64,000 bases of DNA from Escherichia coli (GTDB taxonomy: Bacteria > Pseudomonadota > Gammaproteobacteria > Enterobacterales > Enterobacteriaceae), in assembly GCF_044324875.1 (NCBI RefSeq), contig NZ_CP172185.1. One strand, given 5' to 3'. Under the pieces are notes generated by a model that saw nothing but the letters and a program-made list of their open reading frames with translations, was not told the origin of the DNA and made no database searches. Shown here piece by piece: positions 523 through 40,298 of this stretch. Position numbers and translations under genes: made by a program. Position 1 is the first letter of the stretch, and each line of letters begins with the position of its first letter.

Positions 523-2064
<1,542 letters not shown>

Positions 2065-2149
2065 CCTTAAAGAAGCGTACTTTGCAGTGCTCACACAGAT
2101 TGTCTGATAGAAAGTGAAAAGCAAGGCGTCTTGCGAAGCAGACTGATAC

Positions 2150-2225
2150 GTCCCCTTCGTCTAGAGGCCCAGGACACCGCCCTTTCACGGCGGTAACAGG
2201 GGTTCGAATCCCCTAGGGGACGCCA
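2150..2225 (+). tRNA. gltW: tRNA-Glu in the 16S-23S spacer
   Basis: GTCCCCTTCGTCTAGAGGCCCAGGACACCGCCCTTTCACGGCGGTAACAGGGGTTCGAATCCCCTAGGGGACGCCA, 76 nt with 3' CCA. Confidence 0.95.
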
Positions 2226-2418
2226 CTTGCTGGTTTGTGAGTGAAAGTCGCCGACCTCAATATCTCAAAACAGACTGTTAAGTCTTGTTTGAGATATTTG
2301 CTCTTTAAAAATCTGGATCAAGCTGAAAATTGAAACACTGAACAACGAAAGTTGTTCGTGAGTCTCTCAAATTTTCGCAACACGATGATGAATCGAAAGA
2401 AACATCTTCGGGTTGTGA

Positions 2419-5323
<2,905 letters not shown>

Positions 5324-5421
5324 ACAACGCCGAAGATGTTTTGGCGGATGAGAGAAAGATTTTCAGCCTGATACAGATTAAATCGACAGGTCATAACGAG
5401 ACGTGTTGATAAAACAGAATT

Positions 5422-5541
5422 TGCCTGGCGGCCGTAGCGCGGTGGTCCCACCTGACCCCATGCCGAACTCAGAAGTGAAACGCCGTAGCGCCGATGGTAG
5501 TGTGGGGTCTCCCCATGCGAGAGTAGGGAACTGCCAGGCAT
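5422..5541 (+). rRNA. rrfG: 5S ribosomal RNA
   Basis: TGCCTGGCGGCCGTAGCGCGGTGG ... GGGAACTGCCAGGCAT, 120 nt. Confidence 0.95.
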
Positions 5542-22702: not shown

Positions 22703-23658
22703 TGAAGCAACTTTGGTTTGCCATGTCATTAGTGACAGGTAGCCTGTTATTCTCTGCTAACGCCTCGGCCACTCCCGCGTCCGGGGCGTTATTACAGCAG
22801 ATGAACCTGGCCAGTCAGTCACTGAATTACGAGCTGTCATTCATCAGCATCAATAAACAGGGTGTTGAGTCTCTGCGTTATCGACATGCACGCCTCGATA
22901 ACCGTCCTCTTGCACAATTGTTGCAAATGGATGGCCCGCGCCGGGAAGTGGTACAGCGCGGCAATGAAATCAGCTATTTTGAACCGGGACTTGAACCGTT
23001 CACGCTTAATGGCGATTACATTGTTGATTCTCTACCATCGCTCATCTATACCGATTTCAAACGCCTTTCTCCTTACTACGACTTTATCTCCGTCGGGCGC
23101 ACGCGTATTGCTGATCGTCTTTGCGAAGTCATTCGTGTGGTTGCCCGAGATGGTACACGCTACAGCTACATCGTGTGGATGGACACCGAATCGAAATTAC
23201 CGATGCGGGTTGATCTCCTTGATCGCGATGGTGAAACGCTGGAACAATTTCGCGTGATTGCTTTTAATGTCAATCAGGATATCAGCAGCAGTATGCAGAC
23301 GTTGGCGAAGGCAAATTTGCCGCCGTTGCTTTCTGTTCCTGTAGGTGAAAAAGCTAAATTCAGCTGGACGCCAACCTGGTTGCCACAGGGTTTTAGCGAA
23401 GTTTCCAGTAGTCGACGTCCGCTACCGACGATGGACAACATGCCTATCGAATCACGTCTCTATTCCGACGGATTATTCAGCTTTTCGGTAAACGTTAACC
23501 GCGCTACGCCATCGAGCACCGATCAGATGTTGCGCACCGGACGCAGAACCGTCAGTACAAGCGTACGTGATAACGCCGAAATCACCATTGTCGGTGAACT
23601 GCCGCCGCAAACGGCGAAACGCATTGCCGAGAATATTAAGTTCGGGGCAGCGCAATGA
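22702..23658 (+). CDS. rseB: Sigma-E regulatory protein RseB, 318 aa
   Basis: Signal peptide; start overlaps the rseA stop (ATGA). Confidence 0.9.
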   Translation: MKQLWFAMSLVTGSLLFSANASATPASGALLQQMNLASQSLNYELSFISINKQGVESLRYRHARLDNRPLAQLLQMDGPRREVVQRGNEISYFEPGLEPFTLNGDYIVDSLPSLIYTDFKRLSPYYDFISVGRTRIADRLCEVIRVVARDGTRYSYIVWMDTESKLPMRVDLLDRDGETLEQFRVIAFNVNQDISSSMQTLAKANLPPLLSVPVGEKAKFSWTPTWLPQGFSEVSSSRRPLPTMDNMPIESRLYSDGLFSFSVNVNRATPSSTDQMLRTGRRTVSTSVRDNAEITIVGELPPQTAKRIAENIKFGAAQ

Positions 23659-24134
23659 TCAAAGAGTGGGCTACCGTCATCTCCTGGGAAAACGGGCAGG
23701 CGCTGGTTAGTTGTGATGTTAAAGCCTCATGCAGCAGCTGCGCTTCACGCGCCGGTTGCGGTAGCCGCGTGTTGAATAAACTTGGCCCGCAAACCACGCA
23801 TACCATTGTCGTACCCTGTGATGAACCGTTAGTGCCGGGGCAAAAAGTGGAATTGGGGATCGCCGAAGGCAGCCTGCTTAGCTCCGCATTACTGGTTTAT
23901 ATGTCGCCGTTGGTGGGACTATTCCTCATCGCTTCACTATTTCAGCTACTCTTTGCTTCAGATATTGCAGCATTATGCGGTGCGATTCTCGGTGGCGTTG
24001 GTGGATTCCTGATTGCACGTGGCGGCTCTCGAAAGTTTGCTGCCCGGTCTGAATGGCAACCGATCATCTTAAGCGTGGCATTGCCGCCTGGCCTTGTGCG
24101 ATTTGAAACATCTTCGGAAGACGCGAGCCAGTGA
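23655..24134 (+). CDS. rseC: RseC, 159 aa
   Basis: Overlaps rseB stop; hydrophobic C-terminal half. Confidence 0.85.
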   Translation: MIKEWATVISWENGQALVSCDVKASCSSCASRAGCGSRVLNKLGPQTTHTIVVPCDEPLVPGQKVELGIAEGSLLSSALLVYMSPLVGLFLIASLFQLLFASDIAALCGAILGGVGGFLIARGGSRKFAARSEWQPIILSVALPPGLVRFETSSEDASQ

Positions 24135-24331
24135 TTTCACTGGCTTTGTTGCATTTTGCATAACAAATGCGAGGACGTTTCCAGATACCACAATCCATAC
24201 GGTATGAACATTTCCTCGCCTCAATGTTGTAGTGTAGAATGCGGCGTTTCTATTAATACAGACGTTAAGCTCAGAACAGCGACTTCTAAAAGCCTGGTTA
24301 ACCGGGCATTAAGGCACAATAATCATACTTT

Positions 24332-26131
<1,800 letters not shown>

Positions 26132-27166: not shown

Positions 27167-27363
27167 ATTATTTATGAGATAAATCTCCCGTGGCTAACGA
27201 CATCCCCCGTCGTTGTGTATAGAATATTCCCCCGAAGTTTAAGGTTGGCACCTCCAGGTTGCCACGGCACACGAAACAGCGTTGGTCCCCATATACCGGT
27301 AAACTGAAACTGCAGCGAAGCAGTTAGCAGAACCATGTATATCAGGTCTGTTTCGTGTGCTGA

Positions 27364-28976
<1,613 letters not shown>

Positions 28977-29727: not shown

Positions 29728-30459
29728 ATGGCTGAATTACTGTTAGGCGTCAACATTGACCATATTGCAACGCTGCGTAACGCACGCGGTACTGCTTACC
29801 CGGATCCGGTGCAGGCGGCGTTTATTGCTGAGCAGGCGGGAGCAGACGGCATTACCGTGCATTTACGTGAAGATCGCCGCCACATTACTGACCGTGATGT
29901 GCGCATCCTGCGTCAGACGCTGGATACCCGCATGAATCTGGAGATGGCGGTGACCGAAGAGATGCTGGCGATCGCCGTTGAAACAAAGCCGCATTTTTGC
30001 TGCCTGGTACCTGAAAAGCGTCAGGAAGTAACAACCGAAGGCGGCCTGGACGTCGCAGGGCAGCGTGAAAAAATGCGCGATGCCTGCAAACGTCTGGCAG
30101 ATGCCGGGATCCAGGTTTCTCTGTTTATCGACGCCGATGTAGAGCAGATCAAAGCTGCGGCAGAGGTTGGCGCACCGTTTATCGAGATCCACACAGGTTG
30201 CTATGCTGATGCCAAAACTGACGCCGAACAGGCGCAAGAGCTGGCGCGTATCGCCAAAGCCGCGACCTTTGCCGCTAGTCTCGGTCTGAAAGTTAACGCT
30301 GGTCACGGTCTGACCTATCACAACGTGAAAGCTATTGCCGCCATCCCTGAGATGCATGAACTGAATATCGGTCATGCCATTATTGGTCGTGCAGTGATGA
30401 CCGGACTGAAAGATGCGGTGGCAGAAATGAAGCGTCTGATGCTGGAAGCGCGTGGCTAA
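29728..30459 (+). CDS. pdxJ: Pyridoxine 5'-phosphate synthase, 243 aa
   Basis: Start at [21 protein letters not shown]. Confidence 0.9.
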
Positions 30460-30839
30460 TGGCAATATTAGGTTTAGGTACGGATATTGTGGAGATCGCT
30501 CGCATAGAAGCGGTGATCGCCCGATCCGGTGAGCGCCTGGCACGCCGCGTATTAAGCGATAACGAATGGGCAATCTGGAAAACGCACCACCAGCCGGTGC
30601 GTTTTCTGGCGAAGCGTTTTGCTGTGAAAGAAGCGGCGGCAAAAGCGTTTGGCACCGGGATCCGCAATGGTCTGGCGTTTAATCAATTTGAAGTATTCAA
30701 TGATGAGCTCGGCAAACCACGGCTACGGCTATGGGGTGAGGCATTAAAACTGGCGGAAAAGCTCGGCGTTGTAAATATGCATGTAACGCTGGCAGATGAA
30801 CGCCACTATGCTTGTGCCACGGTAATTATTGAAAGTTAA
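30459..30839 (+). CDS. acpS: Holo-ACP synthase, 126 aa
   Basis: [17 protein letters not shown]-terminus; overlaps pdxJ stop. Confidence 0.95.
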
Positions 30840-30864
30840 AAAAATACCGTTCTCTTTATAAAGT

Positions 30865-30906
30865 AAAACCCCCGAACTGGTAAGGAACGGGGGTTTTACT
30901 TTTTAA
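30865..30906 (+). terminator. Rho-independent terminator after acpS
   Basis: AAAACCCCCGAACTGGTAAGGAACGGGGGTTTTACTTTTT. Confidence 0.8.
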
Positions 30907-31258
30907 CTTTAATTTTGTGCAGCACGCACCCTCAACAAGAGCGATTATGGATCAGGGCGGTTATCTTTTACAAGCAACTTGCAATCTTTAGCATAAAAAC
31001 TCGAGCCTTTACGAAGAAAACAATATTGATGGAAAGATTAACGTGACCGCCAATTCGGAAGTACATTAAAATTGGCTTCGTTATTGGCGATTTTGCTGTG
31101 CTTTATACCATGCCACAGAATTCCCCCATTGAAACGAGTGGTGTCGTCAAAGCTCTGGTGTGGAGTGCAGCATGCACCCTCAATAACTCGCACGTTCAGT
31201 TTTGGGGAGATGTAAGGGCTAATCTGAACGGCTGCATTCCTTGTTTAAGGAAAAACGA

Positions 31259-31339
31259 ATGACTGATTGCCGATACCTTATTAAACGGGTCATCAAAATC
31301 ATCATTGCTGTTTTACAGCTGATCCTTCTGTTCTTATAA
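31259..31339 (+). CDS. shoB: Type I toxin ShoB, 26-aa hydrophobic peptide
   Basis: ATG preceded by AAGGAAAAACGA; encodes MTDCRYLIKRVIKIIIAVLQLILLFL*; acpS-yfhL intergenic position matches the shoB/ohsC locus as recalled. Confidence 0.7.
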   Translation: MTDCRYLIKRVIKIIIAVLQLILLFL

Positions 31340-31533
31340 CATAAGGAAACGTACTTAAGGCGCGTCAGGTTAACCAGCCAGGCGCGCCTTTAATAATTAT
31401 AAATAAGTGCTTATACAGATAGTGTTATCATTCATGAAATAATTGATATTTATGATCACATCACGAAAATAAATATAAGAACCTGAAGGTTCACACTATA
31501 AAGTCAACAATAGTCTACTCCAGGAGCAGAATA

Positions 31534-31830
<297 letters not shown>

Positions 31831-40114: not shown

Positions 40115-40298
40115 CAGTGGCTCATTCACCGACTTATGTCAGCCCCTTCGGGACGTGCTACATAAAATTCGAATGACGCACAACAAGGTGCCTGCCGTCC
40201 AACTTCTGATATCAGCGTAGCTATATCAACCATCGGGCGAAACGTCGAGTTAGGCACCGCCTTATTCCATAACAAAGCCGGGTAATTCCCGGCTTTGT
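40115..40298 (+). ncRNA. glmY: Small RNA GlmY
   Basis: Starts AGTGGCTCATTCACCGACTTATGTCAGCC as recalled for GlmY; ends at terminator AAAGCCGGGTAATTCCCGGCTTTGTTG; about 184 nt. Confidence 0.85.

What the first reader, a model, noticed from the sequence alone, without database searches (positions are those of the whole stretch)
30907..31400. ShoB type I toxin gene and expected antisense OhsC sRNA in the acpS-yfhL gap
The roughly 700-bp gap between acpS and yfhL has no ORF of 60 aa or more. It does contain a 26-codon ORF with a good ribosome-binding site (31259-31339) encoding the hydrophobic peptide MTDCRYLIKRVIKIIIAVLQLILLFL, which I recognise as ShoB. A GC hairpin at about 31357-31390 could terminate its mRNA. 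The cognate antisense sRNA OhsC is expected to be encoded divergently upstream of shoB, but I cannot place its ends by eye.
Basis: partly seen in the sequence, partly recalled or inferred. Interest (0 to 1): 0.4.

Follow-up and report, generated by a model that had tools for sequence, protein, structure and literature searches.

The report
Known ShoB toxin / OhsC antitoxin locus

Summary
Confirmed, and already known. The window is E. coli. The 694-bp acpS-yfhL gap carries the 26-codon ORF at 31259-31339 (+). Its peptide is letter-for-letter SHOB_ECOLI, and RefSeq annotates it as shoB in a 100% identical genome.

It equals the K-12 ohsC annotation.

OhsC does not overlap shoB. Its first 20 nt pair with the shoB 5' UTR at 31165-31184, 75-94 nt upstream of the AUG, because the DNA carries a 20-nt direct repeat 248 bp apart. 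Both published promoters are present, and the predicted mRNA of about 316-320 nt fits the published ~320 nt.

The hairpin at 31357-31390 is real (-22 kcal/mol) and has compensatory changes across strains.

Extra result: E. coli has two co-varying pairing alleles. The same 5-nt block is changed in both repeat copies, in 1697 genomes at each site. That supports the pairing in vivo. An open frame overlapping the shoB start shows no sign of coding constraint.

Novelty: none. Interest: low.

The parts
30858..30936 (-). ohsC gene (OhsC antitoxin sRNA, about 77-79 nt)
   Evidence: Rfam RF02495 full-length match at 30860-30936, 106.6 bits against a gathering score of 50. The K-12 ohsC annotation (b4608, 79 nt) maps to 30858-30936 through the alignment. 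The RNA folds at -28.8 kcal/mol, z = -4.2.
30917..30936 (-). OhsC 5' seed (first 20 nt, GUUGAGGGUGCGUGCUGCAC) that pairs with the shoB 5' UTR
   Evidence: Direct repeat D1. RNAduplex gives 20 contiguous pairs at -41.0 kcal/mol. There is only one other match in 64 kb, against 0.01 expected. The C at 30925 (T in K-12) makes an internal G.U wobble.
30856..30906 (.). Palindrome that serves as the OhsC terminator on the minus strand and the acpS terminator on the plus strand
   Evidence: Inverted repeat I1, 19-nt arms. It folds at -23.9 kcal/mol (minus strand, z -5.6) and -25.4 kcal/mol (plus strand, z -4.4). Rfam also gives a partial plus-strand hit to the 3' half only, 34 bits.
30944..30973 (-). 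ohsC promoter (-35 TTGTAA at 30973-30968, -10 CATAAT at 30949-30944); the start site at 30936 is 7 nt downstream
   Evidence: Promoter scan. The hexamers are identical to those tabulated for MG1655 in PMC11264685, Table 2.
31043..31072 (+). shoB promoter (-35 GTGACC at 31043-31048, -10 TAAAAT at 31067-31072)
   Evidence: Promoter scan. The hexamers are identical to the published ones, conserved in 99.9% and 99.6% of E. coli (PMC11264685).
31080..31395 (+). Predicted shoB mRNA (about 316-320 nt; start inferred from the -10 box, end from the terminator hairpin), with a 5' UTR of about 179 nt
   Evidence: The length fits the published ~320-nt full-length transcript (PMC5668327). MFE -102 kcal/mol, z = -4.8. 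Consensus structure over 15 sequences. Neither end is mapped experimentally here.
31165..31184 (+). OhsC target site in the shoB 5' UTR, 75-94 nt upstream of the AUG
   Evidence: It co-varies with the ohsC seed across E. coli. In the predicted full-length fold it is partly paired with the mRNA 5' end.
31237..31252 (+). Anti-SD (UUCCUU, 31237-31242) and SD (AAGGAA, 31247-31252) hairpin
   Evidence: Six pairs, essentially invariant in 15 sequences. Alone the hairpin is weak and not significant (-4.6 kcal/mol, z -0.46).
31259..31339 (+). shoB coding sequence (26 aa toxin plus stop)
   Evidence: There is one synonymous difference from K-12. pN/pS-like is 0.18.
31357..31390 (+). shoB terminator hairpin
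   Evidence: -22.1 kcal/mol, z -4.5. Pair 31361/31386 is CG in 6, UA in 5 and UG in 4 sequences. Pair 31367/31380 is CG in 9, UA in 1, GU in 1 and A.A in 4; the A.A mismatch is the window type.

Best explanation
This is the chromosomal shoB/ohsC type I toxin-antitoxin locus of E. coli, intact and in its usual place between acpS and yfhL. shoB is transcribed rightwards from a weak sigma-70 promoter as an mRNA of about 320 nt with a 5' UTR of about 179 nt. The mRNA encodes a 26-aa peptide with a basic N-terminal half and a hydrophobic C-terminal half. When over-made, this peptide inserts in the inner membrane and depolarises it. ohsC is transcribed leftwards from a promoter about 143 bp away and ends in the acpS terminator palindrome. 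[quoted passage not shown] By analogy with tisB/IstR-1 and zorO/OrzO, pairing most likely blocks a ribosome standby or entry region that is exposed only after 5' processing, and it creates an RNase III substrate. A second, RNA-intrinsic layer of control is likely. In the full-length mRNA the 5' end folds back on the target region, the SD pairs with an upstream UUCCUU, and the AUG is paired, so the primary transcript is inert. Shown here: identity of all parts, the complementarity, its co-variation in the population, purifying selection on the ORF, and the terminator. Taken from the literature: toxicity, repression, the 320- and 280-nt transcripts, and RNase III cleavage. Inferred: the standby mechanism and the exact mRNA ends.
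For: Identity. The peptide is an exact match to SHOB_ECOLI. RefSeq annotates shoB in a 100% identical genome and in K-12. Rfam ohsC_RNA scores 106.6 bits over its full length. The window is 95-100% identical to K-12 over ohsC, the promoters, the 5' UTR and the ORF. Both promoter hexamer pairs equal the published ones. The locus is found in 5425 of 5426 complete E. coli genomes, always on the chromosome.

Pairing. There are 20 contiguous pairs (18 Watson-Crick plus 2 G.U) at -41.0 kcal/mol. The match is unique in 64 kb, with 0.01 expected by chance. Two allele classes change the same block, ACCCT to GATTC, in both repeat copies. Cognate duplexes are -41 and -34 kcal/mol against -21 to -28 for cross pairs. 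The B-type ohsC site is in 1697 genomes and the B-type target is in 1697 genomes.

Coding. The pN/pS-like ratio of shoB is 0.18.

Structure. The mRNA fold has z = -4.8. The terminator has compensatory pairs.

Literature. ShoB toxicity and depolarisation, and rescue by OhsC (PMC8309996; PMC5668327). Only the ~280-nt processed mRNA is translated. The 19-nt pairing by the OhsC 5' end (PMC3919570). An RNase III site in the duplex (PMC6212723).
Against: Nothing argues against the identification. Several caveats apply to function in this particular strain and to the mechanism.

- No expression data exist for this window.
- The window's OhsC has G instead of A at position 12 (G.U instead of A-U), and its shoB terminator stem has an A.A mismatch. 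Both are minor: -41.0 against -41.4 kcal/mol for the duplex, and the hairpin is still -22 kcal/mol.
- Thermodynamic modelling gives only a modest rise in target accessibility after removing about 40 nt (mean unpaired probability 0.32 to 0.46), so the processing and standby model is not demonstrated by folding.
- The SD hairpin alone is not significant.
- No profile HMM in NCBIfam or Pfam recognises the 26-aa peptide, so peptide identity rests on exact sequence match and annotation.
- The founding experimental paper (Fozo et al. 2008) could not be read here. Its results are cited second-hand.
Confidence: 0.95

Rival explanations
1. Leader-ORF coupling, as in hok/mok. ShoB would be translated only by ribosomes that first translate the open frame at 31098-31262, whose TGA overlaps the shoB ATG (ATGA). 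OhsC would repress by binding inside that frame.
For: The frame is open for 71 codons in all 18 Escherichia sequences examined. It contains the OhsC target, and the ATGA overlap is kept in all of them.
Against: Neither the GTG at 31098 nor the ATG at 31110 has a Shine-Dalgarno sequence in front. The ATG is lost in L019. Variant sites give a pN/pS-like ratio of 0.78, the same as the two out-of-frame controls (0.71 and 1.14) and unlike shoB (0.18). The B allele changes CTL to LDS in the peptide. No family matches. The literature search found no paper reporting such an ORF. An sRNA pairing mid-ORF would not normally stop an elongating ribosome.
Confidence: 0.05
2. The locus is present but functionally decayed in this lineage, as some chromosomal hok/sok copies are. 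The G.U in the duplex and the A.A in the terminator stem would mark loss of constraint.
For: The window haplotype is a minority one, with at least 99% identity in only 351-475 of 5426 genomes. It has the two non-canonical pairs. Natural loss does occur, as the IS1 replacement in EC96 and the 248-bp deletion in SK6988 show.
Against: All promoter hexamers, the SD, the ORF, the seed and the target are intact. The duplex energy is practically unchanged (-41.0 against -41.4 kcal/mol). The same C/G.U state occurs in three other Escherichia species representatives, so it may be ancestral. The hairpin is still strong.
Confidence: 0.03
3. Not a real gene pair. The 26-codon ORF would be a chance ORF, and the 'OhsC' hit would be only the acpS terminator palindrome.
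For: The 3' half of the Rfam model also matches the plus strand at 34 bits, because the terminator is palindromic. Short ORFs are abundant, with 39 of at least 20 aa in 2.3 kb.
Against: The minus-strand match is full length, including the 5' stem-loop, at 106.6 bits, with a correctly spaced promoter. The peptide is exactly ShoB and is under purifying selection. The seed and target co-vary.
Confidence: 0.01

Closest known systems
shoB/ohsC of E. coli K-12 MG1655 (b4687/b4608; formerly ryfB/ryfC)
   Same: Same flanking genes and the same divergent layout. The ShoB peptide is identical, both promoters have the same hexamers, the SD is the same and the target site is the same. Identity is 95-100% from ohsC through the ORF.
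   Different: OhsC position 12 is G here and A in K-12, giving G.U instead of A-U in the duplex. There is one synonymous change in shoB. The terminator stem differs at 9 of 61 positions, partly compensatory. The 133-bp spacer down to yfhL is only 63% identical.
B-type shoB/ohsC allele (for example IHE3034, UTI89, O157:H7; about 31% of complete E. coli genomes)
   Same: Same locus and architecture, and the same or a one-residue-different ShoB (I22L in the B2-type strains).
   Different: The pairing block is GATTC instead of ACCCT in both the ohsC and the target copy. The promoter segment is 79% identical and the ohsC -35 is TTGTAC. The cognate duplex has one U.U mismatch (-34 kcal/mol). Predicted cross-pairing with the window's allele is much weaker, -21 to -28 kcal/mol.
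tisB/istR-1, zorO/orzO and dinQ/agrB (divergent 'non-traditional' type I systems of E. coli)
   Same: The sRNA is encoded divergently and does not overlap. Its 5' end has 18-21 nt of complementarity to a site far upstream of the RBS in a long 5' UTR. The primary transcript is inert and a 5'-processed form is active. RNase III cleaves the duplex (PMC3919570, PMC4147584, PMC5668327).
   Different: The peptide and RNA sequences are unrelated. tisB and dinQ are LexA-controlled, whereas shoB/ohsC is reported as CpxR-responsive (PMC9600279). For shoB the standby-site mechanism has not been demonstrated.
hok/sok (the classical type I system)
   Same: A small hydrophobic membrane toxin, an RNA antitoxin that blocks translation, and an mRNA fold-back that keeps the primary transcript inert.
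   Different: Sok is a true cis-antisense RNA that overlaps the mok leader ORF, and hok translation is coupled to mok. Here there is no overlap, and the candidate leader frame shows no coding constraint.

Membership tests
ShoB/OhsC type I toxin-antitoxin system | 26-aa ShoB peptide (SHOB_ECOLI) | tested here: met
   The exact-sequence look-up returns the entry named ShoB / SHOB_ECOLI. RefSeq annotates a shoB CDS (WP_000128776.1) at the same place in a 100% identical genome. The peptide is identical to K-12 b4687.
ShoB/OhsC type I toxin-antitoxin system | OhsC sRNA matching Rfam RF02495 at or above the gathering score | tested here: met
   106.6 bits against 50, model positions 1-77 of 77, E 1.2e-17, at 30860-30936 (-).
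ShoB/OhsC type I toxin-antitoxin system | Divergent, non-overlapping arrangement in the acpS-yfhL intergenic region | tested here: met
   AcpS and YfhL are identified by NCBIfam. The gene order matches K-12 and 5335 or more E. coli genomes.
ShoB/OhsC type I toxin-antitoxin system | About 19 nt of complementarity between the OhsC 5' end and the shoB 5' UTR | tested here: met
   20 contiguous pairs (18 Watson-Crick, 2 G.U) at -41.0 kcal/mol. The match is unique in the window. It co-varies across alleles. The literature figure is 19 nt (PMC3919570).
ShoB/OhsC type I toxin-antitoxin system | Published promoter elements and RBS | tested here: met
   GTGACC/TAAAAT, TTGTAA/CATAAT and AAGGAA are all present with correct spacing, matching PMC11264685 Table 2.
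ShoB/OhsC type I toxin-antitoxin system | shoB transcripts of ~320 nt (inert) and ~280 nt (active); OhsC of ~78 nt | not testable with these tools
   Only the predicted lengths (316-320 nt and 77-79 nt) agree.
ShoB/OhsC type I toxin-antitoxin system | ShoB over-production is toxic and depolarises the membrane; OhsC relieves this | not testable with these tools
   Reported for K-12 (PMC8309996, PMC5668327). The peptide here is identical.
Type I toxin-antitoxin systems (general) | Small hydrophobic toxin under purifying selection | tested here: met
   The sequence has a basic N-terminal half and a C-terminal IIIAVLQLILLFL. There are 7 synonymous and 4 conservative non-synonymous variant sites, pN/pS-like 0.18.
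hok/mok-type leader-ORF coupling | A translated, conserved leader ORF overlapping the toxin start | tested here: not met
   The frame is open and overlaps (ATGA). It has no SD, its ATG is lost in L019, and its pN/pS-like ratio of 0.78 equals the control frames.

The most novel reading that the evidence does not exclude
The OhsC:shoB recognition sequence exists in E. coli as two mutually exclusive, co-varying alleles. The A type is carried by the window and K-12. The B type is in about 31% of genomes. The alleles may be functionally orthogonal. They would be kept matched because seed and target are a direct DNA repeat, so that one gene-conversion event changes both at once. The same repeat also mediates loss of the regulatory region, as in the 248-bp deletion in strain SK6988. 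[quoted passage not shown] The matched counts here (1697 and 1697) and the cognate versus cross duplex energies would fill that gap.
Probability: 0.4. Interest if true: 0.3.

Novelty: already known. Interest (0 to 1): 0.08.

Why it matters
For genome annotation it matters only as a correct call. Gene finders often skip shoB, and ohsC is not annotated in most RefSeq E. coli records; in the seven-feature table of the 100% identical genome only shoB is listed. The one point of wider use is the population result. Seed and target change together in two allele classes with identical genome counts. That is natural compensatory-mutation evidence that the predicted OhsC:shoB pairing is what selection acts on. 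It also suggests a simple route, conversion between direct repeats, by which divergently encoded type I antitoxins stay matched to their targets.

Tried and rejected
1. Profile searches of the 26-aa peptide against NCBIfam and Pfam found no family. Identity therefore rests on the exact match and on annotation.

2. The founding paper (Fozo 2008, PMC2597788) and the 2008 MMBR review are not held. Their results are cited second-hand from later open papers.

3. A CpxR consensus scan (GTAAA-N5-GTAAA, up to 2 mismatches) found no site in the divergent promoter region. The only hit near by is at 31092-31106 (-). The published CB1 and CB2 boxes could not be placed.

4. The leader-ORF hypothesis (31098-31262) was tested and rejected as a conserved coding gene.

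5. Folding of full-length against 5'-shortened mRNA was inconclusive. Target accessibility rose only from 0.32 to 0.46. The SD window used in that script was offset by 2 nt, so its SD numbers are not used.

6. The SD/anti-SD hairpin is not significant on its own.

7. The simple terminator scan missed both the shoB and the OhsC terminators because of a short U-tract and a 13-nt loop.

8. E. albertii ohsC could not be recovered. Locus L015 starts inside the shoB 5' UTR, and the look-up of encoding contigs refuses peptides under 30 aa.

9. The genome contigs pattern needs the SD plus MTDCRY, so the absence of E. fergusonii or other genera among the 6 hits does not prove they lack the locus.

Full report
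OBSERVATION. The window is Escherichia coli. The 761 bases around the finding are 100% identical to E. coli GMF054, and similar sequence is present in 5425 of 5426 complete E. coli genomes, always on the chromosome. acpS (30459-30839, +) and yfhL (31534-31797, -) are confirmed by NCBIfam and by RefSeq annotation. The gap between them is 694 bp, and its longest ORF is 54 aa. The 26-codon ORF at 31259-31339 (+) reads MTDCRYLIKRVIKIIIAVLQLILLFL and is preceded by AAGGAA at 31247-31252. The hairpin at 31357-31370/31377-31390 folds at -22.1 kcal/mol with z = -4.5.

IDENTITY OF THE TOXIN GENE. An exact-sequence look-up returns the peptide under the names 'Small toxic protein ShoB ... SHOB_ECOLI' and 'type I toxin-antitoxin system toxin ShoB'. 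RefSeq annotates shoB (WP_000128776.1) at this position in the identical genome and in K-12 (b4687). The window differs from K-12 by one synonymous base in the ORF. Neither NCBIfam nor Pfam has a profile that recognises the peptide. Across 18 Escherichia sequences the ORF has 7 synonymous and 4 conservative non-synonymous variant sites (V11A, I14V, I15V, I22L). That gives a pN/pS-like ratio of 0.18, which indicates purifying selection.

Rfam family RF02495 (ohsC_RNA) matches 30860-30936 on the minus strand over the whole model. The score is 106.6 bits against a gathering score of 50, with E = 1.2e-17 (found again in the whole-window scan). The K-12 ohsC annotation (b4608, 79 nt) maps through the pairwise alignment to 30858-30936.

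The published ohsC promoter is in place: -35 TTGTAA at 30973-30968 and -10 CATAAT at 30949-30944, 7 nt from the start at 30936 (PMC11264685 Table 2).

The 3' two-thirds of OhsC is a 15-bp hairpin (-23.9 kcal/mol, z -5.6). It is the reverse reading of the acpS terminator palindrome at 30856-30906, so this is a bidirectional terminator.

HOW THE TWO GENES TALK. OhsC and shoB do not overlap. The published shoB promoter (-35 GTGACC at 31043-31048, -10 TAAAAT at 31067-31072) puts the shoB start near 31080, about 143 bp from the ohsC start. Complementarity arises from a direct DNA repeat, 30917-30938 and 31165-31186, spaced 248 bp apart.

The first 20 nt of OhsC form 20 contiguous pairs with 31165-31184 (18 Watson-Crick and 2 G.U) at -41.0 kcal/mol. 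This site lies 75-94 nt upstream of the AUG. It is the only other match to the seed in 64 kb at up to 3 mismatches, where chance expects 0.01. The literature gives 19 nt of 5'-end pairing (PMC3919570). The window has C at 30925 where K-12 has T, which turns one A-U into G.U at almost no cost in energy.

NATURAL COMPENSATORY EVIDENCE. I sampled E. coli genomes across the identity range and added four other Escherichia species representatives that retain the ohsC side. Among the E. coli genomes there are two allele classes of the pairing block.

- A type (window, K-12 and others): GTGCAGCA[C/T]GCACCCTCAA in the ohsC copy and GTGCAGCATGCACCCTCAA in the target copy.
- B type (IHE3034, O157:H7 and others): GTGCAGCACACGATTCCAA in the ohsC copy and GTGCAGCACTCGATTCCAA in the target copy.

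The same 5-nt block, ACCCT to GATTC, is changed in both copies. All 12 intact E. coli loci sampled carry matched copies. Cognate duplexes are -41 kcal/mol (A) and -34 kcal/mol (B), whereas cross pairs are -21 to -28 kcal/mol.

Short allele-specific queries against all complete genomes give 1697 genomes with the B-type ohsC site and 1697 with the B-type target (consistent). This fits the 33.1% TTGTAC -35 class in PMC11264685. Equal counts are not proof that the two sets are the same genomes, but together with the sample they indicate complete linkage.

In the other species the substitutions keep the pairing. In L019 the target differs from its own ohsC copy by two C-to-T changes, and both give G.U. 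[quoted passage not shown] These counts speak to that point.

THE mRNA. From about 31080 to about 31395 the RNA is 316-320 nt long, which fits the published ~320-nt primary transcript. A ~280-nt 5'-processed form is reported to be the only translatable one (PMC5668327). The predicted fold (-102 kcal/mol, z -4.8) and the consensus fold of 15 sequences have three features.

- The first 31 nt pair with 31156-31187, covering much of the OhsC target.
- UUCCUU (31237-31242) pairs with the SD.
- The AUG is paired with the coding region.

Sequence variation is too low for covariation in most helices. Pair 31087/31180 occurs as G.U, A-U and G-C but never as a mismatch. The terminator has true compensatory pairs (CG 6, UA 5, UG 4). 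The window type has one A.A in the terminator stem.

Removing about 40 nt in silico raises the mean unpaired probability of the target only from 0.32 to 0.46. Folding is therefore compatible with the tisB/zorO-style 'processing exposes a standby site that the sRNA then occupies' model, but it does not demonstrate it (PMC4147584). RNase III cleavage within the putative duplex has been detected in vivo (PMC6212723).

A RIVAL THAT WAS TESTED. The frame at 31098-31262 (54 codons from a GTG, 50 from the ATG at 31110) contains the OhsC target and ends in a TGA that overlaps the shoB ATG. It is open for 71 codons in all 18 sequences, and the ATGA overlap is kept in all of them. This suggested hok/mok-like coupling.

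The evidence is against it. No SD precedes either start. The ATG is lost in L019. The pN/pS-like ratio of 0.78 is no different from the two control frames (0.71 and 1.14). The B allele changes three consecutive residues. No protein family matches meaningfully, and the literature search found no paper reporting such an ORF. I rate this reading at about 5%.

DISTRIBUTION. A scan of one genome for each of 100,044 bacterial and archaeal species, using an SD-plus-MTDCRY pattern, found six loci, all in Escherichia: E. albertii, E. whittamii, two unnamed species and two 'E. coli' representatives. This agrees with the view that ShoB is confined to E. coli and its close relatives (PMC2887945). The pattern is strict, so absence elsewhere is not proven.

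COMPARISON AND VERDICT. The locus meets every sequence-level feature that defines shoB/ohsC. The functional features (toxicity, rescue, transcript sizes) cannot be tested here but were shown for an identical peptide and a near-identical RNA in K-12. The locus works like tisB/istR-1, zorO/orzO and dinQ/agrB: a divergent sRNA, 5'-end pairing far upstream of the RBS, and an inert primary transcript. It works unlike hok/sok, which relies on overlap and leader-ORF coupling. Interest is low. The only mildly new element is the population-level co-variation of seed and target.

Noticed in passing
window 30917-30936 and 31165-31184; L004, L005, L007, L008, L009, L011 (B type): E. coli has two co-varying alleles of the OhsC seed and its shoB target. 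The same 5-nt block (ACCCT to GATTC) is changed in both direct-repeat copies. The B type is found in 1697 genomes at each site. Predicted cross-allele duplexes are 10-20 kcal/mol weaker than cognate ones.
   Followed up: yes
L014 (E. coli SK6988), between acpS (ends 2423) and shoB (starts 2595); corresponds to window 30917-31164: A 248-bp deletion lies exactly between the two direct repeats. It removes both promoters and leaves one hybrid repeat. The repeat that provides RNA complementarity is thus also a substrate for recombination that deletes the regulatory region.
   Followed up: partly
L010 (E. coli EC96) 2627-3324: An IS1 element sits where shoB and its 5' UTR should be. Only the first ~111 bp after acpS (the ohsC part) remain, so this is an 'antitoxin-only' strain of the kind mentioned in PMC11264685.
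   Followed up: partly
window 31401-31533: The AT-rich spacer between the shoB terminator and the yfhL stop is hypervariable within E. coli. It is 63% identical to K-12 and 54% to strain 24AR0376, whereas the neighbouring shoB ORF is 96-100% identical. At least three haplotypes exist. The window type is in about 6-9% of complete genomes. No ORF, Rfam match or repeat explains this.
   Followed up: partly
window 30937-31079 compared with L009/L011: The divergent promoter segment between ohsC and shoB is only 79% identical between A-type and B-type strains (30 differences in 144 bp), although the flanks are 96-100% identical. The other Escherichia species examined are A-like, so the B segment looks derived or imported.
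   Followed up: partly
window 31098-31262 (+): An open frame of 54 codons (71 codons between stops) spans the OhsC target, and its TGA overlaps the shoB ATG. It is open in all 18 sequences but shows no coding constraint (pN/pS-like 0.78 against 0.71 and 1.14 in the control frames).
   Followed up: yes
window 30856-30906: One palindrome serves as terminator for acpS on the plus strand (followed by UUUUU) and for OhsC on the minus strand. This is why Rfam also gives a partial plus-strand ohsC hit of 34 bits.
   Followed up: yes
window 523-5539, 23619-24450 (-), 27234-27448, 40116-40263: Other Rfam matches in the window: an rRNA operon with tRNA-Glu (16S 523-2064, 23S 2419-5323, 5S 5424-5539), AsrC antisense RNA of rseC, the rncO leader, and GlmY. 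All are expected for this part of the E. coli chromosome.
   Followed up: no
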